DNA of 64,000 nucleotides, from contig DASUFQ010000078.1 in the NCBI GenBank assembly GCA_036274515.1, forward strand, positions 2,450-66,449. Direction: 5' to 3'. The stretch's first letter is position 1, and every line of letters begins with the position of its first letter. The stretch is from Gemmatimonadales bacterium. Lineage in GTDB: Bacteria > Gemmatimonadota > Gemmatimonadetes > Gemmatimonadales > GWC2-71-9. Made by a program: the position numbers and the translations under genes. Shown here in pieces: positions 179 through 53,449 of the stretch. The notes beneath the pieces are model-generated. The model saw only the letters and a list, made by a program, of their open reading frames with translations, was not told the DNA's origin and did not search any database.

Positions 179-1585
179 ATGCCCTCCATCCTCCTCATCG
201 ACGACGAGGCCAACATCCGCCGGATGCTCGGTGCGCTGCTGCGCGCCGAGGGGCACGAGGTGTCTGAGGCGCCAAACGGGAACGCCGCCCTGCTCCAGGT
301 GGACGAGACCGAGCCCGACGCGATCTTCCTCGACCTGATGATGCCGCCCGGCCCCGATGGGCTGGCCACCCTCCAGTCCCTGCGCGAGCGCGGGGTCTCG
401 GCGCCGGTCATCATGATGAGCGGCAAGGCGCAGCTGGCCGACGCGGTGCGGGCCGCCCGCCTCGGCGCCTTCCAGTTCCTCGAGAAGCCGCTCACCCCCG
501 AGTCGGTGCTCGTCACCCTGCAGGCGGCGCTCGACCTGTCGCGCACGCAGGCCGCCAACCGGGCGCTGCATGCGGCCCTCGGCCGCCGCGACGAGATGGT
601 GGGCGGCTCGGCCGCGCTCCGCCGGGTCCGCGAGCTGGTGGCGCAGGTGGCGCCGGGCGACACCCGGGTGCTGATAACCGGCGAGTCCGGCACCGGCAAG
701 GAACTGGTGGCCGCGGCGATTCATCGCGCCAGCGGACGGTCCGCCGGCCCCTTCGTGGCGGTCAATTCGGCGGCGATCCCGCGCGACCTGGTCGAATCCG
801 AAATGTTCGGCCACGAGCGGGGGGCCTTTACCGGCGCCAGCGAGCGGCGGATGGGCCGGTTCGAGCTCGCGGACCGCGGCACCCTCTTCCTCGACGAAGT
901 CGGCGACCTGAACCTCGAGGCGCAGGCCAAGCTCCTCCGCGTGCTCGAGGCAGGCGAGGTGCAGCGCGTCGGCGCCGAGCGCACCACCCGGGTCGACGTC
1001 CGCGTCATCGCCGCGACCAACACCCGGCTCGACGACGCGGTGGCGCGGGGACAGGTCCGCGAGGACCTCTTCTTCCGGCTGAATGTCTTCCCGATCCACC
1101 TGCCGCCGCTCCGCGAGCGGCTCGAGGACCTGCCGGCGCTGGTGCGTCACTTTGCGAGCCGGCTCCGGCCGCAGGCGCCGGTCGCGTTCACGCCGGCCGC
1201 GATCGCCGCCATGGCAGCGTATCCGTGGCCGGGCAACGTGCGGGAGCTGGCCAATGTGGTGGAGCGGCTGACGATCCTCTCGGACGGCGAGGTCGGCGCG
1301 GAAGCCGTCCACCAGGTGGTGCCGGCGGCGGGTGCGCGAATGGCGCGGCCCTCGCTGTCCGACCCTGGTCGTCCTCACCCCCTGTCCCCCTCTCCGGGAA
1401 CCGGAGAGGGGGGACGGAGGGAGGTGTCGCTCTCGTTGACGGAATCCCTGGAGACCCACGAGCGCGCGCTGATCCAGGCGGCGCTCGCCGAGGCGGGAGG
1501 CACGGTGGCGGAGGCCGCGCGCATCCTGCAGACCGACCGGGCGAACCTCTACCGGCGGATGAGGCGGCTGGGGTTGGGGGAGTAG
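179..1585 (+). CDS. sigma-54-dependent response regulator (NtrC family: receiver + AAA+ + Fis-type HTH)
   Basis: Receiver N-terminus (ILLIDDE...DLMMP), Walker A GESGTGKE, GAFTGA loop, C-terminal HTH (AEAARILQTDRANLYRRMRRLG). Confidence 0.95.
   Translation: MPSILLIDDEANIRRMLGALLRAEGHEVSEAPNGNAALLQVDETEPDAIFLDLMMPPGPDGLATLQSLRERGVSAPVIMMSGKAQLADAVRAARLGAFQFLEKPLTPESVLVTLQAALDLSRTQAANRALHAALGRRDEMVGGSAALRRVRELVAQVAPGDTRVLITGESGTGKELVAAAIHRASGRSAGPFVAVNSAAIPRDLVESEMFGHERGAFTGASERRMGRFELADRGTLFLDEVGDLNLEAQAKLLRVLEAGEVQRVGAERTTRVDVRVIAATNTRLDDAVARGQVREDLFFRLNVFPIHLPPLRERLEDLPALVRHFASRLRPQAPVAFTPAAIAAMAAYPWPGNVRELANVVERLTILSDGEVGAEAVHQVVPAAGARMARPSLSDPGRPHPLSPSPGTGEGGRREVSLSLTESLETHERALIQAALAEAGGTVAEAARILQTDRANLYRRMRRLGLGE
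1381..1421 (+). repeat. in-frame palindromic element (12-bp perfect stem CCCCCTCTCCGG / CCGGAGAGGGGG, 3-nt loop)
   Basis: Stem 1386-1397 pairs with 1401-1412. It encodes SPSPGTGEGG in the linker before the HTH. The arms are the same as in the hairpin inside tgt. Confidence 0.7.
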
Positions 1586-4266: not shown

Positions 4267-4338
4267 GACTGAGGACTGAGGGCGATCCGAAGGTCGTCGA
4301 ACCGGATCTCAGTCCCCAGTCCTCAGTCCTCGTTCCTA
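4264..4338. repeat. inverted pair of heptamer arrays forming a long hairpin between convergent genes
   Basis: Left arm TAGGACT GAGGACT GAGGGCG (4264-4284). Right arm is the reverse complement of TAGGAAC GAGGACT GAGGACT GGGGACT GAG (4308-4338). 14 bp pair perfectly (4265-4278 with 4317-4330), plus an inner GATCCG/CGGATC. Both flanking stop codons lie inside the arms. Confidence 0.85.
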
Positions 4339-4887
4339 GTGTGTCCGCAGCGCGTGCAGCGCGGCCTCTCCGTAGAACAGCCGGATGTACTTGGCCTGTG
4401 TCCGGCTCAGGCTCCGCACCGCCCACGACAGGTGGACGAAGTGGGGCTCGAGGGGCGGGTGCAGCGGCACCATCCCGCACTCCTCGGGGAGGCGGTTGCC
4501 CTTGCGGGTGTTGCAGGTGCTGCAGGCCGTCACCACGTTGGTCCACGCATTCCCGCCGCCGCGCGAGATCGGCACCAGGTGGTCGCGCGTGAGGCACTCG
4601 CGCGGACGCAGCTCCGGCTGGCTCCGGCTGCAGAACTGGCAGCGGTAGCCATCGCGGGCAAAGAGGAAAGTGTTGGTGACGTGGCGGCGGAAGCGGCGGG
4701 GGACGTGCACGAACTTGACGAGTCGGATGATGGCTGGCCGTGGGATGGCCAGCCGCTCACTTCGCATGTACTCCGGTCCGTCGGCCTCGACGATTTCGGC
4801 CTTGCCCTCGATGACCAGCCGCAGCGCCCGGCGGACGGGCACCATGGTCAGCGGCTCGAAAGAGGCGTTCAAGGCAAGGCAGCGCAT
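4336..4887 (-). CDS. HNH endonuclease family protein
   Basis: 183 aa from the internal ATG (MRCLALNASFEPL...). HNH/zinc motif CQFC...DHLVPISRGG...N...CSTCNTRKGN. The upstream 539-aa extension in the track is GC-shadow. Confidence 0.85.
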   Translation of the reverse strand: MRCLALNASFEPLTMVPVRRALRLVIEGKAEIVEADGPEYMRSERLAIPRPAIIRLVKFVHVPRRFRRHVTNTFLFARDGYRCQFCSRSQPELRPRECLTRDHLVPISRGGGNAWTNVVTACSTCNTRKGNRLPEECGMVPLHPPLEPHFVHLSWAVRSLSRTQAKYIRLFYGEAALHALRTH

Positions 4888-4967
4888 GCCGTGATTCCCG
4901 GGTGAGGTGGTTGGAAGAATCGTAACGGCCGGTGCTGGCGGCAGCAAGGGAGGGCCGGCCCGCGGCG

Positions 4968-6206
4968 CTACCGTCGGTGGACGGTCCGTCCCCCGAGGAT
5001 TGTCTCCACCACATCCGCCGGCCCGCTGGCCAGGATCGCCTCGAGAACGGCGTCGGCTGCCCGCGCCCCCGCGATCCCGACGACCGCCGCATCTCCCCAC
5101 ATCCCCGCGCGCAATGACCCGACCTCCCGCTCGAGCCCGAGCGCGGCGGCGGCCCCCGTCGTGGCCAGCGCCAACGCCGCGTCCGCCGCCAGCCCGGCCA
5201 GCGCCCGGGCGGCGCGCGCCTCGGCAAGCAGATCGAGCGCCCCGACGCTCACCTCCGAATCGGTGCCCACCCCCACCCGCAGCCCCGCGCGGAGGAAGGC
5301 TCCGATCGGCGCCGTGCCATGCCCGTGCCTGCGGTTGGAGAGCGGACAGTGCGCCACAGCGCAGCGATGGAGCCCAAGCAGCGCGATGTCCCGCGCCCCC
5401 GCCTGCACGACGTGGATGGCGAGGGTGGAGGGCCCCAGCACCCCGTGCTGCGCCAGCCACTCGACCGGGGACCGCCCCGGCAGCGAGGGGACCGGGATCC
5501 CGCGCGCCGCCCATGCCTCGGCAAAGGGCCCCGCGGCACCCTGCAGCAGTTCCGATTCGGCCGTGGATTCCGCGAGGTGCACCGCGATGGGGAAACCGCC
5601 GTCGGCGGCGAAGACGGCGATCGCCGCGTAGAGCGGCCCGCTGACGGTATAGGGCGCGTGCGGCGACACGCCGAGCCGCACGCGAGCGAAGGCAAACTGC
5701 CGGAGGGAGGCCATCCGCGCCCGGAAACCCGCCATGCTCTCGTCCACCTGGTCCGGATGGGGCCCGAACACCTCGTGGTAGGCGATGCCGCTCCCACCCG
5801 CCCCCGCCATCGCCTCGATGACCGCGCCGGAATCGCCGGTGTCCGCCACGGTCGTGACCCCGGCGGCATGGCAGGCGGCCAGGCCGGCACGCGCCGCGTC
5901 GAGGAAGTCGGCCTGCGAGCGCTCCGCCTTGAGTGCCCGCACCCGCCGAATCCATGACGGGAAGTCGTCCTCGGGGGCCTTGCCGGCCAGGCCGGTGAGC
6001 TCGAGATGGGTGTGGGTGTTGACCAGGCCGGGAATGAGGGCCGCGCCGGGGAACCGCTCGCGCTCGACCCCGTGAGGCGCGGCGACGGCGGCGCGGGGGC
6101 CGACCTCCCGGATGCGTCCGTCCGCGCCGATCAGCACCGCGCCGTCATGGATCGGCGGGCCATCCATGGGGACGACCCAGTCGGCGCTCAGGAGGCGAAC
6201 GGGCAC
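4968..6206 (-). CDS. amidohydrolase-family metal-dependent deaminase/chlorohydrolase (MtaD/aminofutalosine-deaminase-like)
   Basis: N-terminal LIPGLVNTHTHLEL metal-binding motif. Later H...H and D motifs (AVHLAES, GTDS). Confidence 0.85.
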   Translation of the reverse strand: MPVRLLSADWVVPMDGPPIHDGAVLIGADGRIREVGPRAAVAAPHGVERERFPGAALIPGLVNTHTHLELTGLAGKAPEDDFPSWIRRVRALKAERSQADFLDAARAGLAACHAAGVTTVADTGDSGAVIEAMAGAGGSGIAYHEVFGPHPDQVDESMAGFRARMASLRQFAFARVRLGVSPHAPYTVSGPLYAAIAVFAADGGFPIAVHLAESTAESELLQGAAGPFAEAWAARGIPVPSLPGRSPVEWLAQHGVLGPSTLAIHVVQAGARDIALLGLHRCAVAHCPLSNRRHGHGTAPIGAFLRAGLRVGVGTDSEVSVGALDLLAEARAARALAGLAADAALALATTGAAAALGLEREVGSLRAGMWGDAAVVGIAGARAADAVLEAILASGPADVVETILGGRTVHRR

Positions 6207-41249: not shown

Positions 41250-42092
41250 ATGCCAGTCTACCCCTTCAACATCCATCTCGGCCCGATGCAGGTGACCGGG
41301 TACGGCCTGATGATGATGGTCGCCTTCCTCACCGGCGGCTGGCTGATCGCGCTCGAGCTCCAGCGGCGGCACCTCAACCGGGAATATTCCTCGGACATCG
41401 TCATCGCCGCCCTCATCGGCGGCATCCTCGGCGCCAAGATCTGGTACGCGGTCCTGAAGGGAGACGCCGGGGCGCTCTTTTCCCTCGGCGGGCTCGTCTG
41501 GTACGGCGGGTTCCTCGGCGGGGTGACGGCGGTCCTCATCAACGGCTGGCGGCTTCGCGTGCCTCCGCGGTGGACCATGCAGGTCATGGCGCCGGCGCTG
41601 GCGGCGGCCTACGCCCTCGGCCGGATCGGCTGCTTCCTGGTGGGCGATGACTACGGTCGCCCGACCGACCTCCCCTGGGCCCTCTCCTTCCCCCAGGGAC
41701 TGCCCCCCACCACGGCGGGCAACCTGGCCGGCTTCGGCGTGCCGTTTCACCCCGGCACCGACCCCTCGACGGTGCTCGCGGTGCACCCGACACAGCTCTA
41801 CGAAACGATCCTGATGTTCTTCGCCTTCACGATCCTCTGGAAGCTGCGGACAAAGGCGTGGGGGACCGGCGCCATCTTCGGCGTGTACCTGGTGATGGCG
41901 GGGGTCGAACGGTTTTTCGTCGAGATCCTCCGTGCCAAGGACGATCGCTTCTTCGGCGGCTTCACGGCGGCGCAGCTGACCAGCGTGGCGCTGGTGGCGG
42001 TAGGGATGATCGTCTTCGCCAGACTGAAGGACGCGGGCGTCGCCCCGACGGGGGTGTACCTTTCCAATACACCAGCGGAAACTGTCAAATAG
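41250..42092 (+). CDS. lgt: prolipoprotein diacylglyceryl transferase
   Basis: YGLMMMVAF, GRIGCFL.GDDYG, HPTQLYE. Confidence 0.95.
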   Translation: MPVYPFNIHLGPMQVTGYGLMMMVAFLTGGWLIALELQRRHLNREYSSDIVIAALIGGILGAKIWYAVLKGDAGALFSLGGLVWYGGFLGGVTAVLINGWRLRVPPRWTMQVMAPALAAAYALGRIGCFLVGDDYGRPTDLPWALSFPQGLPPTTAGNLAGFGVPFHPGTDPSTVLAVHPTQLYETILMFFAFTILWKLRTKAWGTGAIFGVYLVMAGVERFFVEILRAKDDRFFGGFTAAQLTSVALVAVGMIVFARLKDAGVAPTGVYLSNTPAETVK

Positions 42093-42139
42093 TTCGACAA
42101 CGTGGTAAGTGACTCAGATCACATAGGTTGTGCCACAGC

Positions 42140-42181
42140 GCCGGGAATCGTCAAATTATCGTACGATTTCCGGCGTTTTTC
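42140..42181 (+). terminator. intrinsic terminator of lgt
   Basis: 11-bp stem GCCGGGAATCG (42140-42150) / CGATTTCCGGC (42164-42174, one G-U), 13-nt loop, then GTTTTT. Confidence 0.75.
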
Positions 42182-42211
42182 GCGACCTTCCCAAATATTG
42201 TAACTTAAACT

Positions 42212-42240
42212 GTGACAACGTGTTACGATCTTGTTAAATG
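42212..42240 (+). promoter_or_regulatory. sigma-70-like promoter GTGACA-17 nt-TGtTAAATG (extended -10)
   Basis: Read directly in a region of about 45-50 % GC. It sits 30 nt after the lgt terminator and just before the structured RNA candidate. Confidence 0.5.
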
Positions 42241-42246
42241 TGGCAT

Positions 42247-42418
42247 GAACGGTGCTTTAGTAAGAGACCAGCAAGGGGCGTATTCGAGCTCCAGGAAAAA
42301 GTGGTAGGTCGAAGAAGGGTTGGAGCGGGCACATCCGCCCGTTTCCGTATAACTCAGGGGGCGATCTACCACCTCTCTACGCAAGCGGCCCGCCGATTTC
42401 GGCGGGCCGTTTGCATTT
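42247..42418 (+). ncRNA. candidate structured small RNA (~170 nt), class not assigned
   Basis: It has its own promoter and terminator. Nested helices: 42254-42267/42374-42386, 42301-42311/42362-42372, and an apical hairpin at 42326-42341. GC is far below the genome average. There is no credible ORF. Confidence 0.55.
42387..42418 (+). terminator. intrinsic terminator GGCCCGCC-gatttc-GGCGGGCC followed by GTTTGCATTT
   Basis: 8-bp perfect GC stem, 6-nt loop and a T-rich tail on the plus strand. It lies 13 nt from the stop of the convergent FTR1 gene. Confidence 0.7.
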
Positions 42419-42430
42419 CCCCCTTGCTGC

Positions 42431-44551
42431 TCAGTACTGCCGCGCGTGCAGCCTGGCCTTGAGGCGGGCCACCTCGGCACGCAGCTCGGCCAGGTCGGCG
42501 TCCATCCGGTCGAGCGAACGGAGCAGGTCCACCTCGAAGTGCACGCCCCCCGACGGCGCCTTCGACTCCACGACCGCCCCGGCGTCGGCGGCGGGCGGGA
42601 GCGGATCCGGCACCAGTTCCTGCGTGACCCGGAGCCGCCGCGGCTCCAGGTAGAAGGTCCACACCAGCGCGATCACGAAGAGCAGGAGCAGCACCCCCTG
42701 CACCGCGAGCGACTCCACCGTCCGGTAGATTCCCAGTCGCTCGATCTGCGGCGCCCACTCCACCACCGTGATCGGCACCACCCCGCCCCCCTGCAATTCC
42801 GCGACGCCCTTCCCCGCGAAGACGAACGCCATGTAGTAGAGGAAGGCGCTGGTGACGCCAAAGAAGGGCTTGAGCGGGAGCTTCACCCCGAAGCGATTGA
42901 TCAGGACGTACACCACGCCGAGAACCACCGAGGCCGCGGCGATGCCGAGGAGCACCGGCATGACCGCCCCGCCGGCGGGGCCGGCGAGGAGGAGCGCCTT
43001 GTAGAAGAGGACGGTCTCCACCCCTTCCCGGTAGACCGCGAGGAATGCGACGGACGGCAGGGCAAAGGCGGAGCCCGACACCAGCGCGTCCTGCACCTTC
43101 CCCTTCACGAACCGGTTCCACTTCGCCACTTCCATCTTGGAGAGGAGCCAGTAGCTGACGTAGAAAAGCGCCGCGGTGGCCACCAGCATGGTGACCCCCT
43201 CGAGCACTTCCTGGCTGGCGGGGGAGAACCGGAAGATGGTCTCGAACGCCACGGCGGTCAGGAGGCTCACGACCACGGCGGCGGCGACCCCGACGTGAAT
43301 GTCGCGCCGGCGGCGGCGGTTGCCCGTCTTGACCAGGAAGGCGATCAGCGCGCCGATCAGGAGGATCGCCTCCAGCCCTTCGCGGAGGAGGATGACGAAC
43401 GACTGCACGAAGAGGTCGGCGCCGGTCATCGGCTCGGCGACGAGGCGTTCCGCCCGCGCGAGGTCGACGCCGAGTCCTGCGCGCAGCGTCCGGAGTTCCC
43501 CCGCGGTGGCGCCCCCCGACACCCGGCCCCGCAGCGTGGCGAACGACGCCTCGAGCCGCCCGGCGAGCGCCGGATCCACCGCGCGCACCCCCGATTCCAC
43601 CTGCTCGAAGGTCAGGTACGCCTCGAACGCCTCCCCGCCGGCGGCGTCGCTCTCCCCGAGGGCGGCCAGTGCCAGCGCCGAATCGAGCTGGGTCCCCACC
43701 TGCGCGAAGACCGCGGCTGACTCCGCCCCGCTGTCCTGGCCGTGGAAGCTCCGCACCGCGGCGATGGCGGCGGCGGATTGGTCGGGGATCCCGCCGATCG
43801 CCTCGGCGATCTGCCGGTCGGACATCCGCGCGGTGGTGCCGAAAGCGCGGAGGCCGGCGGGCACCTCGCCGGCGGGAGCGGGATAGCGGAGGAGGGTGGC
43901 GTACGCCGCGGCGGCCCAGCGATCGGAGCTGCTGAGCCGGGTCTCGAAGGCGGGCATCGCGGTGCCCGCGACGCCGATCGTGATCCGGCGGTAGTAGTCG
44001 AGCGGGGAAAGGTCGGCGAGCCCGGCGCCGTCGTTCAGCGTGGCGGGGGGCGGCGTGAGCCCGAGCCCGTCGGGGCCGTCGCCCCGGCCGGCGAGCCCGT
44101 GGCAGCCGGCGCAGTTCTTCTGGTACACCTGCGCCCCGCGCGCGAGCGACGGCGCGGCGGAGGGCACCTGGTCCACGTCCACCCGATAGCGGTCGGCCAA
44201 CCCGGCGGTCAGCGTCCGGGCGCCGAGCGCCACGGAATCGGGATCGGCGGTACGCCCGATCGCGGCGAGCAGGAGGTTCAATGCGGAAACGGTGGCGGCG
44301 GAAGATTCAGGGGGGAGCCGGCCGGCGGTGCGCACCGCCTCAGCGAGGAAGAGCCGGGCCTCCGCCACCTCGGCGGGGGCAATCACCCGCCCGGCAGAGA
44401 CGCCGACCCGGTACTCCTGCGCGGCGAGCTGGACGGTCGTCGCGATTCGCTGGACCACCTGCGTCAAATCGCCCCCGGGCGGGGGCGACGGTGCGCCCTG
44501 CTGGAGGGCAGCGACGAGCAGGATGGAGTGAACCGCGTTGGTGATAATCAT
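42431..44551 (-). CDS. cytochrome c / FTR1-family iron permease fusion protein
   Basis: Signal-like N-terminus, heme motif CAGCH, two REGxE motifs (LREGLEAIL, YREGVETVL) in a 7-TM FTR1 domain, and a C-terminal coiled-coil tail. Confidence 0.85.
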   Translation of the reverse strand: MIITNAVHSILLVAALQQGAPSPPPGGDLTQVVQRIATTVQLAAQEYRVGVSAGRVIAPAEVAEARLFLAEAVRTAGRLPPESSAATVSALNLLLAAIGRTADPDSVALGARTLTAGLADRYRVDVDQVPSAAPSLARGAQVYQKNCAGCHGLAGRGDGPDGLGLTPPPATLNDGAGLADLSPLDYYRRITIGVAGTAMPAFETRLSSSDRWAAAAYATLLRYPAPAGEVPAGLRAFGTTARMSDRQIAEAIGGIPDQSAAAIAAVRSFHGQDSGAESAAVFAQVGTQLDSALALAALGESDAAGGEAFEAYLTFEQVESGVRAVDPALAGRLEASFATLRGRVSGGATAGELRTLRAGLGVDLARAERLVAEPMTGADLFVQSFVILLREGLEAILLIGALIAFLVKTGNRRRRRDIHVGVAAAVVVSLLTAVAFETIFRFSPASQEVLEGVTMLVATAALFYVSYWLLSKMEVAKWNRFVKGKVQDALVSGSAFALPSVAFLAVYREGVETVLFYKALLLAGPAGGAVMPVLLGIAAASVVLGVVYVLINRFGVKLPLKPFFGVTSAFLYYMAFVFAGKGVAELQGGGVVPITVVEWAPQIERLGIYRTVESLAVQGVLLLLFVIALVWTFYLEPRRLRVTQELVPDPLPPAADAGAVVESKAPSGGVHFEVDLLRSLDRMDADLAELRAEVARLKARLHARQY

Positions 44552-47962: not shown

Positions 47963-49309
47963 TCAGATGTCCAGGTTCCAGCGCTTGATCTTGTTGATCA
48001 GCGTGGCGCGCGAGATGCCGAGCTCCTGCGCCGACCGCGTCCGGTTGCCGCCGTGATGCCGCAGCGTCCGCTCGATGTGCTGCCGTTCCAGCTCCTCGAG
48101 GGCGAGCGGCGTGTGCCGGCGGTCGCCGGGGCCGGGGCGCGCGCGGAACTCCCCGGGGAGGTGCTCGACGCCGACCACCGGCTGGCCGCGGCCCAGGATC
48201 AGCGCCCGTTCCAGCACGTTGCGCATCTCGCGCACGTTGCCCGGCCACGCGTAGCCCAGCAGCCGCTCCAGCGACTCCGCGCCGATCTCGGGAGGGCCAT
48301 CGGCCAGCTCGGTGCGGAGGTCGTGGAAGATGCGGTTGATGAGCGCCAGCCGGTCGTCACGGGAGCGGTCGCGCACCGCCGGGAGCCGCACCGGCATGAC
48401 GCTGAGGCGGTAGTAGAGGTCCTCGCGGAACCGCCCCTCCTCGACCTCGACGGCAAGGTCCTTGTTGGTGGCCGCGACCAGCCGCACGTCCACCGTGATT
48501 TCCCGGGTGCCCCCCAGCCGCCGGAAGGTCTTCGTTTCCAGCACCTTCAGCAGCTTCGGCTGCAGCTCGAGCGCGAGGTCGCCGATCTCGTCGAGGAAGA
48601 TCGTGCCGCGGTCGGCGATCTCGAAGAGCCCCTGCTTCCGGTCCTTGGCGTCGGTGAACGCCCCCTTCTCGTGCCCGAACAGCTCGGAATCGAGGAAGGT
48701 GGGGCTGAGCCCGGCGCAGTTGACCTCGACGAACGGCAGCCGCGCGCGGGGGCCGAGGTTGTGGATCATCCGCGCCACCCACCCCTTGCCGCTGCCGCTC
48801 TCGCCGAGGAGGAGGACGGTGGTCCGCTCGCTCTGGGCCAGGAGGGAAATCTGGTGGGCGAAGGCCTTCATCGTCGGTGAGCCGCCCAGCGAGTCGAGCC
48901 CCCGGCCCGGCGCGCCGTGGTTGACCAGCGCCTCGTTGACCCGGCGGAGCCGCGCCTTGTCGGCCACGCGGGCCGCGGCCGCCGAGAGGTGCGTCATGTC
49001 GACCGGCTTGGAGAGGAAGTTCTCCGCGCCGAGCTGCATGGCGCGCACCGCGGTGGCGACGTCGGTGTTGCCGGTCAGGAGGATGACGCTCGCGTCGCGC
49101 TCGCGCAGCCGTTCCAGCACCTCGAGGCCGTCCATCCCGGGGAGGTGAAGGTCGAGCATCACCACCTCGGGGTGCAGGCGATCGTAGGTGGCGAGCCCCG
49201 CCTCGCCGCTGAGCTCCCGGGTGACCTCCCACCCCAGCTGCTCGAAATAGTTGCCGATCGCACGGAGGACATCCGTGTCGTCGTCGATCAGCAGGACGGA
49301 ACCGATCAT
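47963..49309 (-). CDS. sigma-54-dependent response regulator (NtrC family)
   Basis: Receiver (VLLIDDD...MLDLHLPG), GESGSGKG Walker A, GAFTDA loop, C-terminal HTH (RSAQELGISRATLINKIKR). Confidence 0.9.
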   Translation of the reverse strand: MIGSVLLIDDDTDVLRAIGNYFEQLGWEVTRELSGEAGLATYDRLHPEVVMLDLHLPGMDGLEVLERLRERDASVILLTGNTDVATAVRAMQLGAENFLSKPVDMTHLSAAAARVADKARLRRVNEALVNHGAPGRGLDSLGGSPTMKAFAHQISLLAQSERTTVLLLGESGSGKGWVARMIHNLGPRARLPFVEVNCAGLSPTFLDSELFGHEKGAFTDAKDRKQGLFEIADRGTIFLDEIGDLALELQPKLLKVLETKTFRRLGGTREITVDVRLVAATNKDLAVEVEEGRFREDLYYRLSVMPVRLPAVRDRSRDDRLALINRIFHDLRTELADGPPEIGAESLERLLGYAWPGNVREMRNVLERALILGRGQPVVGVEHLPGEFRARPGPGDRRHTPLALEELERQHIERTLRHHGGNRTRSAQELGISRATLINKIKRWNLDI

Positions 49310-49322
49310 CGTGTCACCTCGC

Positions 49323-52300
49323 TCAGCGGCCGGGGTGCCGCGGGAGTTCGAACCAGATGCGCGCCCCGCCCCCCGGGCGGTTCTCGGCGCGGATGTCGCC
49401 GCCGTGCGCGCGCACGATGCCATGCGAAATCGACAGCCCCAGGCCGGTGCCCTCGCCCACGGGCTTGGTCGTGAAGAACGGCTCGAAGATGCGCGCCATC
49501 ACCTCCGGCGGAATGCCGGGGCCGGCATCGGCCGCCTCGAAACGGATGGCCTCGCCCACCGCCTCGATCCGGACGGTGCCGCTGCCTCCGGCCCCCCGCA
49601 TGGCGTGCGCGCCGTTCGACAGGAGGTTCAGCACCACCTGCCGGAGCTGGTCCGGGTCGGCGTGTGCCGCGGGGAGGTCGGCGGGGCACTCCACCGTCCA
49701 CCGCCCGAGGCGCTCCCCGCCGGCCGCAAGGACCTCCCGGGTGAGCGCTCCGAGGTCGAGCGCCGTGCGGCGGAGCGGGCGCTGCCGCGCGAAGGTCAGG
49801 AGGTCGGTCACGATCTGCGCCGCCCGCGTCGCTTCGCCCCGGATGCTCTCCACCACCCGGCGGCTGCCCTCGTCGAGCGGCTCGTCGAGGATCAGCGCCT
49901 GCGCCAGGGCGCTGATGCCGGCGAGCGGGTTGTTGAGCTCGTGCGCCACGCCGCTCACCAGCCGCCCGAGCGCCGCCAGCTTCTCGGTGTGCCCGAGCTG
50001 CTCCCGGAGCCGCTGCTCGTCGGTCACGTCGCGCGCGATTGCGAGCACCAGCGGCGCGCCGGCCTCCTCCCCCGCCGCCGGCACCGCCACCACCGCCGCC
50101 TCGCGCACTGCCCCGTCCGGCCGGCGCAGGTGCATCACAAACTCCCGCGGTTCGCCGGTGCGCACCGTGCGCAGCTGCTTCTGAACGTACTCCACCTCGG
50201 CGGGGACGAGGAAGTCCGCCAGCCGCGAGGCGGTGTCGAAGCCCGCCAGCGCGCGCGCGGAGGGATTGACCGAGCGGAGCGCCCCCGCCTCGTCCAGCGT
50301 GAAGATGGCGACCGGAACCGTGTCGAACAATGCCCGGTACCGGGCCTCCGACCGCCGGAGGTTGTCGGTGGCCACCCACTCGCGGGTCACGTCGCGCATC
50401 AGCGCCACCGCGCCCCCCGCCCCTTCCGCCACGCCGAGCGGCGCCAGCGACACCGCCAGCAGCCGTTCCCCCCCGTCGGGCCGGACCACCTGCGACTCGA
50501 ACCGGCGCGATCCCCCCGCGCCGGTGGTGTCCCCCGGCAGCAGTTCCGCCAGCGTGCGCCGGGTGAGCCCCTCGGCAGGGGTCCCGAAGAGATCCACCGC
50601 CGCCGCGTTCGCGTAGACCACCTGTCCCTGTTCGTCGGCCAGGACGATGGCGTCGTGCGCCGCCTCCACCACCAGCCGGAACCGCTGCTCGAGCCGGACC
50701 ACCTGGCTCACGTCGTCCACCGCCACCACATGGCCCCCCTCGGGGAGGGGCGTGGCCGTCACCACGAGCGACCGCCCGTCGAGCGACTCGATCAGGTCGG
50801 TCACGCCGGTGCCCGAACCGGCAGACAGGGTGAGCGGATCCTCGCGCGCGTCCCCCGCGTCCACGAAGACGGCGCGCAGCTGCCTCCCGACGATCTCCGT
50901 CACCGCCACCCCGGCCAGGTCGGCGATGAACCGGTTGGCCCGGACGATCAGGCCGTCGGCGTCCACGATGGCGAGCCCGGTCCCGGCGCCGTCGAACGCC
51001 GTCTGCCACTCGCGCCGGCTCCGGCTGACCTGGTCGAAGAGCCTGCTCTTGCCGATGGCGAGCGCCGCCTGGTCGGCAAAGGCCACGGCGAGCCGGCGTT
51101 CCTCGGACGAGTACTCCCGGGGCCGGTCGTGGAAGAAGGTCAGGACGCCGATCGTCTCGTTCGCGAAGACCAGCGGCAGGAAGGCGGCGGAGGCGTATCC
51201 CTCCGCCTTGGCGGCCGCCGCCATGGGCGACGACACATCCCGCCGGGCGTGCTCCGTGAAGACCGCCTCTCCCCGCAGGAGCGCCGGCGCCATCGGCAGC
51301 GCGTGAAACTGCCGCTCGAACGCCGCCGCGTACTCGGCGGACAGCCCGAGCCGGGCCAGGCACGACGCCGACGACTCGGCGCGCTGGAGCAGGAAGACCG
51401 CGCTCCGCTGGGCGCCGAAGACCCGCATCCCTTCCTCCGCCAGGAAGTGCGTGGTCCGGTCGGCGTCCTCGACCCCGGTGAGCGCATGCGCCACCCGGCC
51501 GAGGGCGTCGATCTGGTCGAGCCGGGTGAGCAGTTCGCCGCGGAGCCGGAGCCCGCTGATGGCCGCCGCCACCTGGTCCGCCACCGCCTGCAGCAGCTGC
51601 ATCGTGTCGGGACCGGGGGGCAGCCAGTCGGCGTCCGGGCCGGACACGGTCAGGACGCCGGTGAGGATCGAGCCGAACCGCATCGGCAGCATGGCGCCGG
51701 GGCGGTGCGGGCGGGGGCGCCGCGGGTCGGGAGCGGCCTCGGGCTCGCGTTCGAGGTCGGCGCTCGACCTCGCGGCGCCGCTCCGCGCCACGGCCATCTG
51801 CGGATCGCGCTCCCCCAGCACATCGCCGATCCGGTAGAGCCGGGCCTCGCTCCCCACCGAGCCCAGCACCACGAGCCCGGGCATCTGCTCGCCGGGCCGC
51901 CCGGCGATCATCGCGCCGGTGGCCTGGCCCACCGCCAGCGCCGCCTCGAGCCCGCGCTCGACGGTGGCGTCGAGGGTGCCGAGCGTCGAGAGATCGTGCG
52001 CCAGGGCGCGGAGCGCCTCGCTGCCGGCCAGCGCCGCCTCGGCCGCGACGGCGATGCGCGCGGCCTCGATGGCGATGGCGGCGTGCGCCGCGATGGCGGC
52101 GACCACCCGGACCGCCCCCTCGTCGTACGCCTCGGGCCGGTAGGATTGTGCCGAGAGCACGCCGATGAGGCGGTCGCCCAGCAGCATCGGCGCGTGGACC
52201 GCCGACTGGCTCAGCTCGCCGGTGCCGAAGACCGCGCCCCGCGTCGCCTGGACCGCCTCGGGGTGGTCGAGGGTAAGCACGCGGCGGTTCCGCACCACCC

Positions 52301-52556
52301 AGCTGGTGGGGCCCCGGCCGAGCGGCGCCTCGGACGACGCGATCCGCTCGCCGCGGTCGGTGTGGGCCACGAAGCGGAGCCGCTCGGTGGCGGGGTCCCA
52401 GAGCGCCACGTAGAAGGCGTCGCACTCCACCAGGCGGGCGACCTGTGCGTGCAGCACGTCGTAGAGCGCCGCGGGCTCGAGCAGCCGCGCAGTGGCCTCG
52501 GCGATGGCCGCCAGCACCTCGGTGGGGAGGGCGCCCCCGGGCTCCGCGCGGTTCAC
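49323..52556 (-). CDS. multi-sensor histidine kinase (several GAF and PAS domains + HisKA + HATPase_c)
   Basis: About 1077 aa with repeated GAF-like and PAS-like blocks. H-box GVAHELNNPL and G-boxes DAGPGI, GTGLGLS. GTG start in a GTGA overlap with the lipid-kinase stop. Confidence 0.9.
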   Translation of the reverse strand: MNRAEPGGALPTEVLAAIAEATARLLEPAALYDVLHAQVARLVECDAFYVALWDPATERLRFVAHTDRGERIASSEAPLGRGPTSWVVRNRRVLTLDHPEAVQATRGAVFGTGELSQSAVHAPMLLGDRLIGVLSAQSYRPEAYDEGAVRVVAAIAAHAAIAIEAARIAVAAEAALAGSEALRALAHDLSTLGTLDATVERGLEAALAVGQATGAMIAGRPGEQMPGLVVLGSVGSEARLYRIGDVLGERDPQMAVARSGAARSSADLEREPEAAPDPRRPRPHRPGAMLPMRFGSILTGVLTVSGPDADWLPPGPDTMQLLQAVADQVAAAISGLRLRGELLTRLDQIDALGRVAHALTGVEDADRTTHFLAEEGMRVFGAQRSAVFLLQRAESSASCLARLGLSAEYAAAFERQFHALPMAPALLRGEAVFTEHARRDVSSPMAAAAKAEGYASAAFLPLVFANETIGVLTFFHDRPREYSSEERRLAVAFADQAALAIGKSRLFDQVSRSRREWQTAFDGAGTGLAIVDADGLIVRANRFIADLAGVAVTEIVGRQLRAVFVDAGDAREDPLTLSAGSGTGVTDLIESLDGRSLVVTATPLPEGGHVVAVDDVSQVVRLEQRFRLVVEAAHDAIVLADEQGQVVYANAAAVDLFGTPAEGLTRRTLAELLPGDTTGAGGSRRFESQVVRPDGGERLLAVSLAPLGVAEGAGGAVALMRDVTREWVATDNLRRSEARYRALFDTVPVAIFTLDEAGALRSVNPSARALAGFDTASRLADFLVPAEVEYVQKQLRTVRTGEPREFVMHLRRPDGAVREAAVVAVPAAGEEAGAPLVLAIARDVTDEQRLREQLGHTEKLAALGRLVSGVAHELNNPLAGISALAQALILDEPLDEGSRRVVESIRGEATRAAQIVTDLLTFARQRPLRRTALDLGALTREVLAAGGERLGRWTVECPADLPAAHADPDQLRQVVLNLLSNGAHAMRGAGGSGTVRIEAVGEAIRFEAADAGPGIPPEVMARIFEPFFTTKPVGEGTGLGLSISHGIVRAHGGDIRAENRPGGGARIWFELPRHPGR

Positions 52557-53449
52557 GGCGACTCGGGCACCATGACGCGGATGGCCCCGGGCACCACGGT
52601 GGCGGTGAAGGGGGTGCTGCCGCCGAGGTCGCCGTCCATTTCCACCCGCGCGGGCGATTCGCACTCGACGTGGATCTCGCTGCCGCGGACGTGCCCGATC
52701 CGGGAGCCGGGGCCGTCGGCGCCACGGAGGAAGTGCCAGATGGCGTGCAGCCCCTCTGCCACGCCGTCGGCCCGCAGCACCAGCACGTCGAGCAGGCCGT
52801 CGTCAGGGCGAACGCCGTCGCCAAACCGGAGGAGCGGCGGCATGATCTCGGCGCAGTTGGCCACGAGGAGCATCGCGGCGTTGGCCTCGTATTCCACGCC
52901 GTCCACCCGGACGTGGTAGCGCAGGCTGCGCACCTCGCGGATGAGCCGGAGCGAGGTGGCGACGTACGCCCCCATCCCCCAGCGCTGCTTCAGGGTGGCG
53001 GGCGTCTCGGCCATGATCTGCGCGTCGAAGCCGGCGCCGCACGCCACGGCGAAGTAGTGGTGCTCGCCCGACGCGTCGAGGCGGCCGAGATCGAGGCGGC
53101 GCGAATGGCCCTTCACCAGCACCTCGGCGGCCCGCAGCGGCGAGAAGGGAATCCGCAGGTTGCCGGCCAGCAGGTTGCCGGTCCCGCCGGGGAGGAGGCC
53201 CAGCGCCACGTCGGTGCCGACCAGCGATGACGCGGCCTGCATCGTGGTTCCGTCGCCCCCGAAGACGGCGACGAGGTCCACCTGCGCCTCGGCGCCCTCG
53301 GTGGCCAGGCGGCGCGCATCCCCCGGGCCCCCGGTGGCCACGATCTCGACCTGCCAGCCGCCCCGGCGCAGGACGTCGCGCACGTCGGACACCGTCTTCG
53401 GCTTGGTGCGCGCCGCCGCGGGGTTGGTGATGACCAGGGCTCGTGGCAC
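52553..53449 (-). CDS. diacylglycerol-kinase-family lipid kinase (YegS/BmrU-like)
   Basis: ALVITNP..., VFGGDGT, LPGGTGN motifs. The GTG start lies 1 nt after the TamB stop. Confidence 0.85.
   Translation of the reverse strand: MPRALVITNPAAARTKPKTVSDVRDVLRRGGWQVEIVATGGPGDARRLATEGAEAQVDLVAVFGGDGTTMQAASSLVGTDVALGLLPGGTGNLLAGNLRIPFSPLRAAEVLVKGHSRRLDLGRLDASGEHHYFAVACGAGFDAQIMAETPATLKQRWGMGAYVATSLRLIREVRSLRYHVRVDGVEYEANAAMLLVANCAEIMPPLLRFGDGVRPDDGLLDVLVLRADGVAEGLHAIWHFLRGADGPGSRIGHVRGSEIHVECESPARVEMDGDLGGSTPFTATVVPGAIRVMVPESP

What the first reader, a model, noticed from the sequence alone, without database searches (positions are those of the whole stretch)
42212..42418. Self-contained ~170-nt structured RNA gene between lgt and the iron permease
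The 338-bp gap between convergent lgt (stop 42092) and the FTR1 gene (stop 42431) falls to roughly 50 % G+C in a ~70 % genome. It is laid out as its own transcription unit.
- lgt first gets its own terminator: an 11-bp stem at 42140-42174 followed by GTTTTT.
- 30 nt later there is a promoter, GTGACA-17 nt-TGtTAAATG.
- About 170 nt follow with nested long-range helices. GCTT..GTA.GAGA (42254-42267) pairs with TCTC.TAC..AAGC (42374-42386). GTGGTAGGTCG (42301-42311) pairs with CGATCTACCAC (42362-42372, one G-U). There is an apical hairpin CGGGC-acatcc-GCCCG (42326-42341) and a 33-nt 5'-side arm that can form GGGGC/GCTCC.
- A second GC-rich terminator with a T-rich tail sits at 42387-42418.
The only ORFs are a 74-aa GC-shadow and a 20-codon ATG ORF built from codons that are rare here (TTA, GTA, AGA, CAA, TAT, AAA). 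By eye it does not match tmRNA, RNase P, SRP RNA or any riboswitch core I know. The length is 6S-like, but the loop asymmetry is not the classical 6S shape.
Basis: seen in the sequence. Interest (0 to 1): 0.7.

Follow-up and report, generated by a model that had tools for sequence, protein, structure and literature searches.

The report
New sigma-54-driven small RNA gene
The gap after the lgt gene holds a real, previously uncatalogued ~150-base structured RNA gene that is conserved across soil Gemmatimonadota and is probably switched on here by a sigma-54 promoter, although what the RNA does remains unknown.

Summary
The structured RNA is real. The window comes from a Gemmatimonadales genome. 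A homologous element lies just downstream of lgt in 55 of 80 related genomes and in 119 soil metagenome contigs. Covariation supports five helices: 97.8% of cells are paired, 31 of 43 pairs show compensatory changes, and 0 of 500 shuffles reach that.

- **Promoter.** The proposed sigma-70 promoter (42212-42240) is not conserved. Instead, an exact sigma-54 -24/-12 element (TGGCAT-N5-GTGC, 42241-42255) is present in all 56 sequences found through lgt. It puts the start near 42267, so the RNA is about 152 nt (42267-42418).
- **Outer helix.** The helix 42254-67 / 42374-86 is not supported (48% paired). Its 5' arm is promoter DNA.

Two TGTC-N9-GACA palindromes sit at -176 and -110, and a third dyad sits at -54. 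This is the usual layout for an enhancer-binding activator. A sister lineage carries the same RNA core with a fully swapped main stem and a TTGACA-N17-TAnnnT promoter, as happens with GlmY/GlmZ.

There is no Rfam match, no conserved ORF and no co-oriented downstream gene. It is most likely a trans-acting regulatory RNA whose invariant purine-rich internal loop is the working part. Expression and function are untested.

The parts
42083..42099 (.). Upstream palindrome 1 (TGTCAAATAGTTCGACA), centred about -176 from the predicted start. It overlaps the lgt stop codon (TAG, 42090-42092). Putative binding site for an enhancer-binding activator.
   Evidence: It is the only exact TGTC-N9-GACA in the 64 kb window. 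A relaxed match lies at -180 to -176 in 54 of 132 sigma-54-type homologs, and at no other position except the -111 site.
42138..42181 (+). lgt terminator hairpin (stem 42138-42177) followed by a T run.
   Evidence: It folds at -24.4 kcal/mol and is followed by UUUUU. In the closest relatives L001-L007, a GCCGAAA...TTTCGGC stem plus a T run is kept.
42149..42165 (.). Upstream palindrome 2 (CGTCAAATTATCGTACG), centred about -110. It lies in the upper part of the lgt terminator hairpin.
   Evidence: A relaxed match lies at -113 to -110 in 97 of 132 homologs. The consensus is CGTCnA....CTnGACA. A control region scores lower.
42200..42226 (.). Third dyad, GTAAC-N17-GTTAC, centred at -54, between the upstream sites and the promoter. 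It may be an IHF-like bending site or the site of a second regulator.
   Evidence: Inverted repeats are centred exactly at -54 (49 hits). The right half-site [AG][CG]TTAC lies at -47 to -45 in 70 of 132 homologs. Distant homologs read GTAAGTCGTTG..CAACGACTTAC.
42241..42256 (+). Sigma-54 promoter: -24 TGGCAT (42241-46) and -12 GTGCT (42252-56). The GG and GC are spaced exactly as in the consensus.
   Evidence: [TC]GGCA[CT]-N5-[TG]TGC is found in 56 of 56 sequences. GGCA and TGC are invariant columns, while the N5 spacer varies. The strict pattern matches only once in the window.
42267..42418 (+). The small RNA itself, about 152 nt. The 5' end is predicted from the -12 element. The 3' end is the U-rich tail.
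   Evidence: The covariance model matches 42266-42420 at 149 bits, E = 1e-40, and it is the only copy in the window.
42275..42292 (+). 5' hairpin (GGGGC / GCUCC). Its sequence varies between genomes, and a few homologs lack it.
   Evidence: All 5 pairs show compensatory changes and 91.7% of cells are paired. It is absent in L119, L124, L177 and L191.
42301..42372 (+). Central hairpin, the conserved core. From the outside in:
- P1: 42301-11 / 42362-72.
- Invariant purine internal loop: AAGAA (42312-16) opposite AGGGGG (42356-61).
- P1b: GGGU/ACUC (42317-21 / 42352-55).
- P2: 42322-30 / 42337-46.
- Apical loop: ACAUCC.
- Junction: GUAUA (42347-51).
   Evidence: Mean pairwise identity is 90%, against 40% for the 5' hairpin region. 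Compensatory changes occur in 7 of 11 P1 pairs, and P1 is wholly swapped to GUCCCAGGAC/GUUCUGGGAC in the sister subfamily. They also occur in 5 of 8 P2 pairs. P1b is invariant.
42381..42418 (+). Intrinsic terminator: a 15-bp stem (42381-95 / 42400-14), a 4-nt loop, and a UUUGCAUUU tail.
   Evidence: 14 of 15 pairs show compensatory changes. The T-rich tail is conserved on the + strand only.

Best explanation
Window 42267-42418 (+) is an independently transcribed small RNA gene of about 150 nt. It belongs to a family conserved in Gemmatimonadota and not yet in Rfam.

**Transcription (inferred).** In this lineage the gene is read from a sigma-54 promoter (42241-42256). A sigma-54 promoter needs an NtrC-type enhancer-binding activator. 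That activator most likely binds the two TGTC-N9-GACA palindromes at -176 and -110. A third dyad at -54 probably helps DNA looping or binds a second regulator.

**Structure (shown by covariation).** The transcript folds into:
- a variable 5' hairpin;
- an A-rich linker;
- a long central hairpin with a strictly conserved purine-rich internal loop (AAGAA opposite AGGGGG) and a conserved apical module;
- a short C/U-rich linker;
- an intrinsic terminator.

**Function (inferred).** It acts in trans as a regulatory RNA. The invariant internal loop is the functional site. The most likely mechanism is binding or sequestering a protein. Base-pairing with pyrimidine-rich mRNA segments is less likely.

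**Shown versus inferred.** Shown: conservation, structure, strand, promoter and operator motifs, non-coding status, independence from flanking genes. Inferred: the start site, sigma-54 and activator dependence, and the trans-acting mechanism.
For: - **Distribution.** Homologs lie directly downstream of lgt in 55 of 80 Gemmatimonadales genomes. They also occur in 119 of 120 metagenome contigs that match the core pattern, and lgt is immediately upstream in 78 of the 79 with enough sequence.
- **Structure.** 97.8% of cells are paired, 31 of 43 pairs show compensatory changes, and 0 of 500 shuffles reach that. Shifted-register controls pair in 33-49% of cells (one search gives the same result on a MAFFT alignment that was not fitted to the structure). 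The top mutual-information pairs all lie within the five helices.
- **Strand.** G-U pairs occur at fixed positions: 84 of 99 sequences at one P1 pair and 98 of 99 in P1b. The + strand folds better.
- **Promoter.** The sigma-54 motif is present in 56 of 56 sequences, with invariant GG/GC and a variable spacer. Two bEBPs (enhancer-binding activators that carry the sigma-54 interaction domain, PF00158) are encoded in the window.
- **Operators.** Two palindromes and the -54 dyad are fixed in position.
- **Independent start point.** The sister subfamily carries TTGACA-N17-TAnnnT at the equivalent place. That puts the RNA 5' end at the same point just before the 5' hairpin.
- **Stand-alone gene.** The downstream gene is always convergent: FTR1 here, rraA in most relatives. 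One homolog sits next to a different gene (L083).
- **Core constraint.** The core is 90% identical across genomes whose Lgt proteins are 58-80% identical to the window's.
- **Precedent.** GlmY/GlmZ use a sigma-54 promoter, TGTCN10GACA activator sites more than 100 bp upstream, and IHF. Some genera have replaced sigma-54 with sigma-70 (PMC3045617).
Against: - There is no expression data of any kind. The start site is predicted only.
- The -12 element in the window's own clade is GTGC rather than TTGC.
- No activator can be assigned. The nearest one (47963-49423) has a non-canonical GAFTDA loop. One relative with a sigma-54-type RNA promoter has a degenerate loop in that orthologue (L205).
- No target was found. 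Neighbouring genes carry no conserved complementarity to the loops.
- The RNA is absent from this locus in 23 related genomes with enough sequence to judge (2 more contigs are truncated), so it is not essential to the clade.
- The metagenome set was recovered with a pattern that required the two loop sequences. The invariance of the loops is therefore unbiased only for the 55 genomes found through lgt.
Confidence: 0.8

Rival explanations
1. One reading: an RNA of about 170-180 nt, made from a sigma-70-like promoter (GTGACA-17-TAAATG, 42212-42240). Its 5' region (42254-67) pairs with 42374-86 to close the molecule.
For: In the single window sequence, the minimum-free-energy fold draws part of this helix.
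Against: The helix is paired in 48% of cells and is no better than shuffles or shifted registers. The proposed -35 and -10 are not conserved. The segment 42241-56 is an invariant sigma-54 motif. The promoter scan finds no + strand sigma-70 site here.
Confidence: 0.04
2. A cis-acting 3' UTR element of lgt. The structure would be made by read-through from lgt and would stabilise, process or terminate that mRNA.
For: It is almost always immediately downstream of lgt and co-oriented with it. In distant relatives the lgt-proximal hairpin lacks a clear T run.
Against: A conserved promoter of its own (sigma-54 or sigma-70, depending on lineage) lies between lgt and the RNA. In this window lgt has its own terminator. 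L083 carries the RNA without lgt. Many relatives have lgt without it.
Confidence: 0.06
3. A 5' leader or riboswitch controlling a downstream gene by attenuation at the 42381-42418 terminator.
For: A highly conserved aptamer-like core followed by a terminator is the usual riboswitch layout.
Against: No co-oriented gene follows in any arrangement. The next gene is convergent: FTR1 in the window clade and rraA in most others. No Rfam riboswitch matches.
Confidence: 0.02
4. A small-protein gene: either the 20-codon ATG ORF at 42245-42307 or the 74-aa ORF at 42238-42462.
For: Both ORFs exist in the window. One reading frame stays open through the core in some relatives.
Against: The ATG is created by the window-specific TGGCATG. 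The other 55 sequences read TGGCAC, TGGCATC or TGGCATT. Single-base indels occur inside the core (GGGTTGG versus GGGTGG; GTATAAC versus GTAAAC). Substitutions are pairwise compensatory, and P1 is fully swapped in the sister subfamily.
Confidence: 0.01
5. A divergent member of a known housekeeping RNA family (6S, SRP/4.5S, or GlmY/GlmZ) that Rfam models fail to recognise.
For: The length is similar to 6S or GlmY. The sigma-54 layout and three-hairpin plan resemble GlmY/GlmZ.
Against: No hit appears even at E <= 10 on 431 nt, or at E <= 1 on six other representatives. The 5' and 3' ends do not pair and there is no central bubble. The RNA is absent from this locus in many close relatives, which is unlikely for a housekeeping RNA.
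Confidence: 0.04

Closest known systems
GlmY / GlmZ small RNAs of Enterobacteriaceae (sigma-54, GlrR/QseF and IHF controlled)
   Same: - It is a stand-alone sRNA gene of about 150-200 nt.
- It has a sigma-54 -24/-12 promoter.
- Several TGTC-N(9-10)-GACA activator palindromes lie more than 100 bp upstream, with a further conserved site between them and the promoter.
- In some lineages the sigma-54 promoter is replaced by a sigma-70 promoter while the RNA is kept (PMC3045617).
- It has three stem-loops ending in a terminator.
- The neighbouring genes relate to the cell envelope.
   Different: - There is no sequence or Rfam similarity.
- It comes from a different phylum.
- It has two upstream sites spaced about 66 bp apart, not three.
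- The spacer is 9 nt, not 10.
- No adjacent glrK/glrR-type operon is directly linked.
- No RapZ, glmS or any other partner is known.
- The core is a purine-rich internal loop that has no counterpart in what I recall of GlmY/GlmZ (from memory, not checked here).
Other sigma-54-dependent sRNAs: Qrr1-5 (Vibrio, LuxO), CrcZ/CrcY (Pseudomonas, CbrB), NrsZ, Pxr (Myxococcus). These comparisons rest on my own knowledge.
   Same: They are regulatory RNAs whose synthesis depends on an NtrC-family response regulator acting on a sigma-54 promoter with upstream dyad sites.
   Different: They are unrelated in sequence and fold. Qrr and NrsZ act by base-pairing, and CrcZ acts through A-rich protein-binding motifs. 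Here the conserved element is a purine-purine internal loop inside a long helix.
6S RNA
   Same: Similar length. It is an abundant-looking structured RNA with its own promoter and terminator.
   Different: The ends do not form a closing stem and there is no large central bubble. No Rfam 6S match was found. Distribution among close relatives is patchy.

Membership tests
Sigma-54-dependent promoter | GG at -24 and GC at -12 with exact spacing (TGGCAC-N5-TTGC), conserved in orthologous positions | tested here: met
   56 of 56 sequences match. GGCA and TGC are invariant columns and the spacer varies. The window reads TGGCATgaacgGTGC at 42241-55.
Sigma-54-dependent promoter | Upstream activator sequences (dyad sites) about 80-200 bp upstream | tested here: met
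   TGTC-N9-GACA-type dyads are fixed at about -178 and about -111.
Sigma-54-dependent promoter | The genome encodes sigma-54 and AAA+ enhancer-binding activators | tested here: inconclusive
   Two activators with PF00158 are encoded in the window: 179-1585 with a GAFTGA loop and 47963-49423 with GAFTDA. rpoN itself is not in the 64 kb window.
Sigma-54-dependent promoter | Transcription depends on rpoN and on the activator | not testable with these tools
   This needs genetics or in-vitro transcription.
Independent structured small RNA gene | Secondary structure maintained by compensatory substitutions | tested here: met
   31 of 43 pairs are compensatory, 97.8% of cells are paired, and 0 of 500 shuffles reach that. 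An alignment not fitted to the structure gives 19 of 38 pairs and 98.0%.
Independent structured small RNA gene | Own promoter and own intrinsic terminator, with no coding potential | tested here: met
   Promoter. Terminator: 14 of 15 pairs covary and there is a U tail. The ORFs are not conserved and the core contains indels.
Independent structured small RNA gene | A discrete transcript is detected | not testable with these tools
   No transcriptome data are available.
6S RNA (RF00013 and relatives) | Closing stem formed by the 5' and 3' ends, a large central bubble, and a match to the Rfam models | tested here: not met
   The end-to-end helix is unsupported. The consensus is three separate hairpins. 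There is no Rfam hit at E <= 10.
GlmY/GlmZ family | Sequence and structure homology to the Rfam GlmY/GlmZ models | tested here: not met
   No hit. The resemblance lies in promoter layout only.
Riboswitch / cis-regulatory leader | Located upstream of, and co-oriented with, the regulated ORF | tested here: not met
   The downstream gene is convergent in all arrangements.
Hfq- or CsrA-type partner-dependent sRNA | Binding to the chaperone or partner. For CsrA, repeated GGA motifs in loops. | tested here: inconclusive
   No conserved GGA lies in a loop (read by eye). There are A-rich (AAGAAG, GAAAAG) stretches and a U tail, which is compatible with Hfq. Binding cannot be tested here.

The most novel reading that the evidence does not exclude
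The invariant module is a new protein- or ligand-recognition fold. It consists of five stacked purine-purine oppositions (AAGAA opposite AGGGGG) flanked by GGGU/ACUC and a conserved apical hairpin. On this reading the RNA is a decoy or sequestering regulator, in the manner of GlmY, CsrB or 6S. It would link a sigma-54 two-component signal to cell-envelope physiology in Gemmatimonadota, a phylum with no described regulatory RNA. The syntenic NtrC-type regulator (47963-49423) may be its activator, because the state of that regulator's sigma-54-contact loop tracks the RNA's promoter type.
Probability: 0.3. Interest if true: 0.7.

Novelty: new member of a known kind. Interest (0 to 1): 0.55.

Why it matters
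Gemmatimonadota are abundant in soils but barely studied genetically. My full-text searches found no description of a regulatory RNA in the phylum.

This element offers several things:
- a well-defined, covariation-supported RNA family;
- a readable control region (sigma-54 promoter, two activator dyads, a third dyad), so the signal pathway can be tested with simple reporter and footprint experiments;
- a core more conserved than the neighbouring protein genes, which points to a specific molecular partner worth finding.

It can be added to Rfam and to genome annotation pipelines straight away.

Tried and rejected
- **Rfam.** I searched the whole window at gathering score, the region at E <= 10, and six other representatives at E <= 1. 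Only chance hits appeared (CopA, miRNAs, leader peptides).
- **tRNA/tmRNA.** The ARAGORN scan found none.
- **Source record.** An exact-protein look-up of Lgt to find the source record found nothing on record.
Both were rejected.
- **Micropeptide reading.** Rejected.
- **Leader/riboswitch reading.** Rejected on gene orientation.
- **More copies.** There is no second copy in the window and no divergent copy in the 25 lgt loci that lack it, by either profile HMM or covariance model.
- **Pseudoknots.** A mutual-information scan found no covarying pairs outside the five helices.
- **Targets nearby.** Neighbouring genes show no conserved complementarity to the two loop strands.
- **Phage origin.** There are no matches in viral contigs.
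- **Other regulon members.** A search for sigma-54 sites or dyads elsewhere in the window gave chance-level counts apart from the sites at this locus. My first dyad pattern had the wrong spacing and was discarded.
- **A sigma-54-like match at 52746-61.** It lies inside a lipid-kinase coding sequence and was dismissed.
- **Assigning the syntenic response regulator as the activator.** The correlation is suggestive. It has one exception and is confounded by phylogeny, so I do not claim it.
- **Literature.** Searches for any Gemmatimonadetes sRNA or RNA motif found nothing relevant.
Full report
**1. What is at the site**

The window is a high-G+C genome of the order Gemmatimonadales. All 80 closest lgt loci in the species-representative genome set are Gemmatimonadales or Gemmatimonadota MAGs.
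- lgt (41250-42092, +, PF01790) and a cytochrome-c/FTR1 fusion gene (42431-44551, -, PF03239 plus PF13442) converge on a 338-bp gap.
- G+C in the gap drops to 0.46-0.52, against 0.66-0.79 around it.
- The plus strand of 42240-42418 folds at -86.9 kcal/mol, z = -6.6 against dinucleotide shuffles. The minus strand gives z = -4.2.
- No tRNA or tmRNA is present. No Rfam family matches at gathering score over the whole window, or at E <= 10 over 42050-42480.

**2. Conservation**

An nhmmer search with 42100-42430 found a plus-strand match immediately after lgt in 55 of the 80 genome loci, with E from 6e-58 to 3e-12. A profile built from these found the same 55 plus the window and nothing else.

A metagenome scan used the two most conserved strings (GAAGAAGGGT-N20-40-ACTCAGGGGGC). 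Of these, 119 are true homologs and one (L098) is an AT-rich chance match. Among the 79 with more than 600 nt upstream, 78 have lgt directly upstream. Viral contigs gave nothing.

Gene order is conserved: thioredoxin-like, tsaD, lgt, [RNA], then the convergent FTR1 and a phosphopantetheinyl transferase.
- In most relatives a convergent rraA (PF03737) lies between the RNA and FTR1. It is missing in the window's clade.
- In 23 of the 25 genome loci without the RNA there is enough sequence to see that it is absent, and in many of them lgt and FTR1 nearly abut. The other two contigs end too soon to tell.
- The covariance model finds no divergent copy there, and only one copy in the 64 kb window.

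**3. The promoter is sigma-54 type, not the one proposed**

Reading the homologs side by side shows TGGCAC-N5-TTGC 50-62 nt upstream of the conserved core.
- [TC]GGCA[CT]-N5-[TG]TGC is present in 56 of 56 sequences.
- In the alignment, GGCA and TGC are invariant columns while the five bases between them vary freely. This is the signature of a -24/-12 promoter.
- In the window it is TGGCATgaacgGTGC (42241-42255), the only match to the strict pattern in 64 kb.
- With C42255 at -12, the start is predicted at about 42267. The stretch from -11 to -1 is AT-rich in all homologs.

**4. Upstream control elements**

I aligned 132 sigma-54-type copies on the promoter. Matches to a relaxed TGTC-N9-GACA dyad pile up at only two positions: -113 to -110 (97 of 132) and -180 to -176 (54 of 132). 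No other position collects even three.
- Consensus sequences are nGTCAAAnAnTTnGACAG for the distal site and CGTCnA....CTnGACA for the proximal site. A control interval scores clearly lower.
- In the window the distal site is a perfect TGTCAAATAGTTCGACA (42083-42099). It overlaps the lgt stop codon and is the only exact match in the window.
- The proximal site is CGTCAAATTATCGTACG (42149-42165).
- In the window's clade that hairpin keeps a G+C-rich base and a T run, so it probably does terminate lgt as well.

A third dyad is centred exactly at -54 (GTAAC-N17-GTTAC here, 42200-42226; GTAAGTCGTTG..CAACGACTTAC in distant homologs). The right half-site lies at -47 to -45 in 70 of 132 copies. In some genomes it reads like an IHF site (for example AATCAACGACTTA).

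Two dyads more than 100 bp upstream, plus an intervening site, is the standard arrangement for an NtrC-family activator. It is very close to the glmY/glmZ control regions, which have TGTCN10GACA sites, IHF and sigma-54 (PMC3045617).

**5. Structure**

On a plain MAFFT alignment of 55 sequences:
- P1 (42301-11 / 42362-72), P1b (GGGU/ACUC), P2 (42322-30 / 42337-46) and the terminator are paired in 98.0% of cells.
- 19 of 38 pairs show changes on both sides.
- 0 of 500 shuffles reach this, and shifted registers give 33-49% pairing.

I then built a covariance model (152 positions, 43 pairs) and aligned 99 diverse copies with it.
- 97.8% of cells are paired and 31 of 43 pairs are compensatory, with 0 of 500 shuffles as high.
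- By helix, compensatory pairs are: 5' hairpin 5 of 5, P1 7 of 11, P2 5 of 8, terminator 14 of 15. P1b is invariant.
- This alignment is fitted to the model, so it leans towards the structure. The unfitted result agrees for the helices it covers (the 5' hairpin was not aligned well enough to test there).

The strand is fixed by G-U pairs (84 of 99 at one P1 pair, 98 of 99 in P1b). All the highest mutual-information column pairs fall inside these helices, so no pseudoknot is supported.

The core (P1 to P1') is 90% identical on average. The 5' hairpin region is 40% identical and the terminator 69%. The Lgt proteins of these genomes are only 58-80% identical to the window's. A few copies lack the 5' hairpin altogether, so it is dispensable (L119, L124, L177, L191).

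**6. A sister subfamily with a different promoter**

At least twelve metagenome copies (L083, L102, L114, L117, L133, L140, L148, L156, L164, L170, L182, L187) and five more recovered later (L201, L202, L203, L206, L208) share these features:
- the same internal loop, P1b and P2;
- P1 completely exchanged (GUCCCAGGAC / GUUCUGGGAC);
- a TTGACA-N17-TAnnnT promoter in place of the sigma-54 motif and dyads, in every copy where the upstream region is present.

They lie in the same tsaD-lgt-RNA-FTR1 synteny, in genomes with more distant Lgt (51-58% identity). L083 is the exception and sits next to a different gene.

Both promoter types place the 5' end at the same point, a few bases before the 5' hairpin. 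This supports the predicted start independently. It also shows that the RNA body, not the regulation, is the conserved unit. GlmY/GlmZ behave the same way: sigma-54 dependence has been lost in favour of sigma-70 promoters in some enterobacteria.

**7. What it is not**
- **Not coding.** The 20-codon ORF starts at an ATG created by the window-specific TGGCATG. All other copies read TGGCAC, TGGCATC or TGGCATT. Single-base indels occur inside the core. The substitution pattern is pairwise, not triplet.
- **Not a leader or riboswitch.** The next gene is always convergent.
- **Not 6S-like.** The ends do not pair and there is no central bubble.
- **Not housekeeping.** Sister lineages lack it at this locus.
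- **Not mobile or phage-borne.** It is single-copy and syntenic, with no viral hits.

**8. How it probably works**

*Shown:* a stand-alone, structured, plus-strand RNA gene with a sigma-54-type promoter and activator-type dyads.

*Inferred:* a signal sensed through an NtrC-family activator switches on the RNA, which then acts in trans.

The most constrained part is the internal loop. AAGAA (42312-16) faces AGGGGG (42356-61), between P1 and the invariant GGGU/ACUC. These could stack as consecutive A-G and G-G oppositions. Such a purine-lined, widened helix is a typical protein-recognition surface, so I favour a protein-binding or decoy mechanism. That step is inference only.

Base-pairing through the loop strands or the C/U-rich linker (CUCUCUAC, 42373-80) remains possible. 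However, the linker is not conserved across the family, and no complementary site is conserved in neighbouring genes.

The surrounding genes are largely envelope-related: a PASTA protein, lgt, NlpC/P60, TamA/TamB and a YegS-type lipid kinase. This fits the proposed link between sigma-54 and the cell exterior (PMC3162934), but it is circumstantial.

**9. A candidate activator (lead, not a claim)**

An NtrC-type response regulator (47963-49423, -; true start probably M38, giving 448 aa) lies 5.5 kb away in a conserved gene array.
- Its sigma-54-contact loop reads GAFTDA in the window and in 123 of 215 collected orthologues. The remaining orthologues have hypervariable, degenerate loops.
- Where both the regulator and the RNA promoter can be seen, GAFTDA goes with the sigma-54-type RNA promoter 7 times (window, L128, L142, L152, L163, L199, L204).
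- A degenerate loop goes with the sigma-70-type promoter 6 times (L156, L201, L202, L203, L206, L208) and with absence of the RNA once (L062).
- There is one exception: L205 has GSHDAA with a sigma-54 promoter.

The pattern is confounded by phylogeny. It would be explained equally well by lineage-wide loss of rpoN, which I could not test.

**10. Verdict**

The promoter, the 5' boundary and one helix needed correction. It is a new family within a known kind, the sigma-54/activator-controlled small RNAs. Its anatomy is unusually clear, but no expression or functional data exist yet.

Noticed in passing
window 47963-49423 (-); orthologues P0001-P0215; loci L201-L208: A syntenic NtrC-type response regulator has a GAFTDA sigma-54-contact loop in lineages whose RNA has a sigma-54 promoter. 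In lineages with the sigma-70-type RNA promoter the loop is hypervariable and degenerate. The tally is 7 versus 6, plus one RNA-less case and one exception (L205). The cause could be co-evolution or lineage-wide loss of rpoN.
   Followed up: partly
window 49323-52664 (-): A 1113-aa GAF/PAS histidine kinase sits between the YegS-type lipid kinase and the response regulator in this window only. In all relatives examined, the lipid kinase directly precedes the regulator.
   Followed up: partly
L040 5197-5682 (-) and equivalents in most sigma-54-type loci: A convergent rraA (RraA-like/aldolase, PF03737) gene lies between the RNA and FTR1 in most relatives. It is absent from the window's clade.
   Followed up: partly
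window 42431-44551 (-): The iron permease is a 706-aa fusion. An N-terminal cytochrome c domain (PF13442/PF00034, residues 136-217) precedes the FTR1 permease (residues 383-587). Some relatives (L201, L202) have a shorter FTR1 of about 340-360 aa without it.
   Followed up: no
L083 (2285 nt): One sigma-70-type copy of the RNA does not follow lgt. It follows a 457-aa ORF that looked to me, from its sequence alone, like a nitronate-monooxygenase-type enzyme (no family search was run). So the RNA is not strictly tied to lgt.
   Followed up: no
window, 10 sites (e.g. 18559, 23581, 38325): The loose pattern TGGC-N8-TGCW occurs 10 times against 3.3 expected, and 0 of 100 shuffles reach this. Eight matches are on the + strand. 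The one checked (52746-61) lies inside a coding sequence, so this is probably codon-composition bias rather than promoters.
   Followed up: partly
window 179-1585 (+) and 4336-5955 (-): A second, canonical GAFTGA NtrC-type activator lies at the window's start. A 539-aa ORF with a C-terminal HNH endonuclease domain lies nearby.
   Followed up: no
L133 about 1185-1210 (-): In one sigma-70-type copy the 5' hairpin itself reads TGGCACCCCAGGTGC. This matches the sigma-54 pattern, and the spacing would start transcription at P1. It may be chance or a vestige.
   Followed up: no
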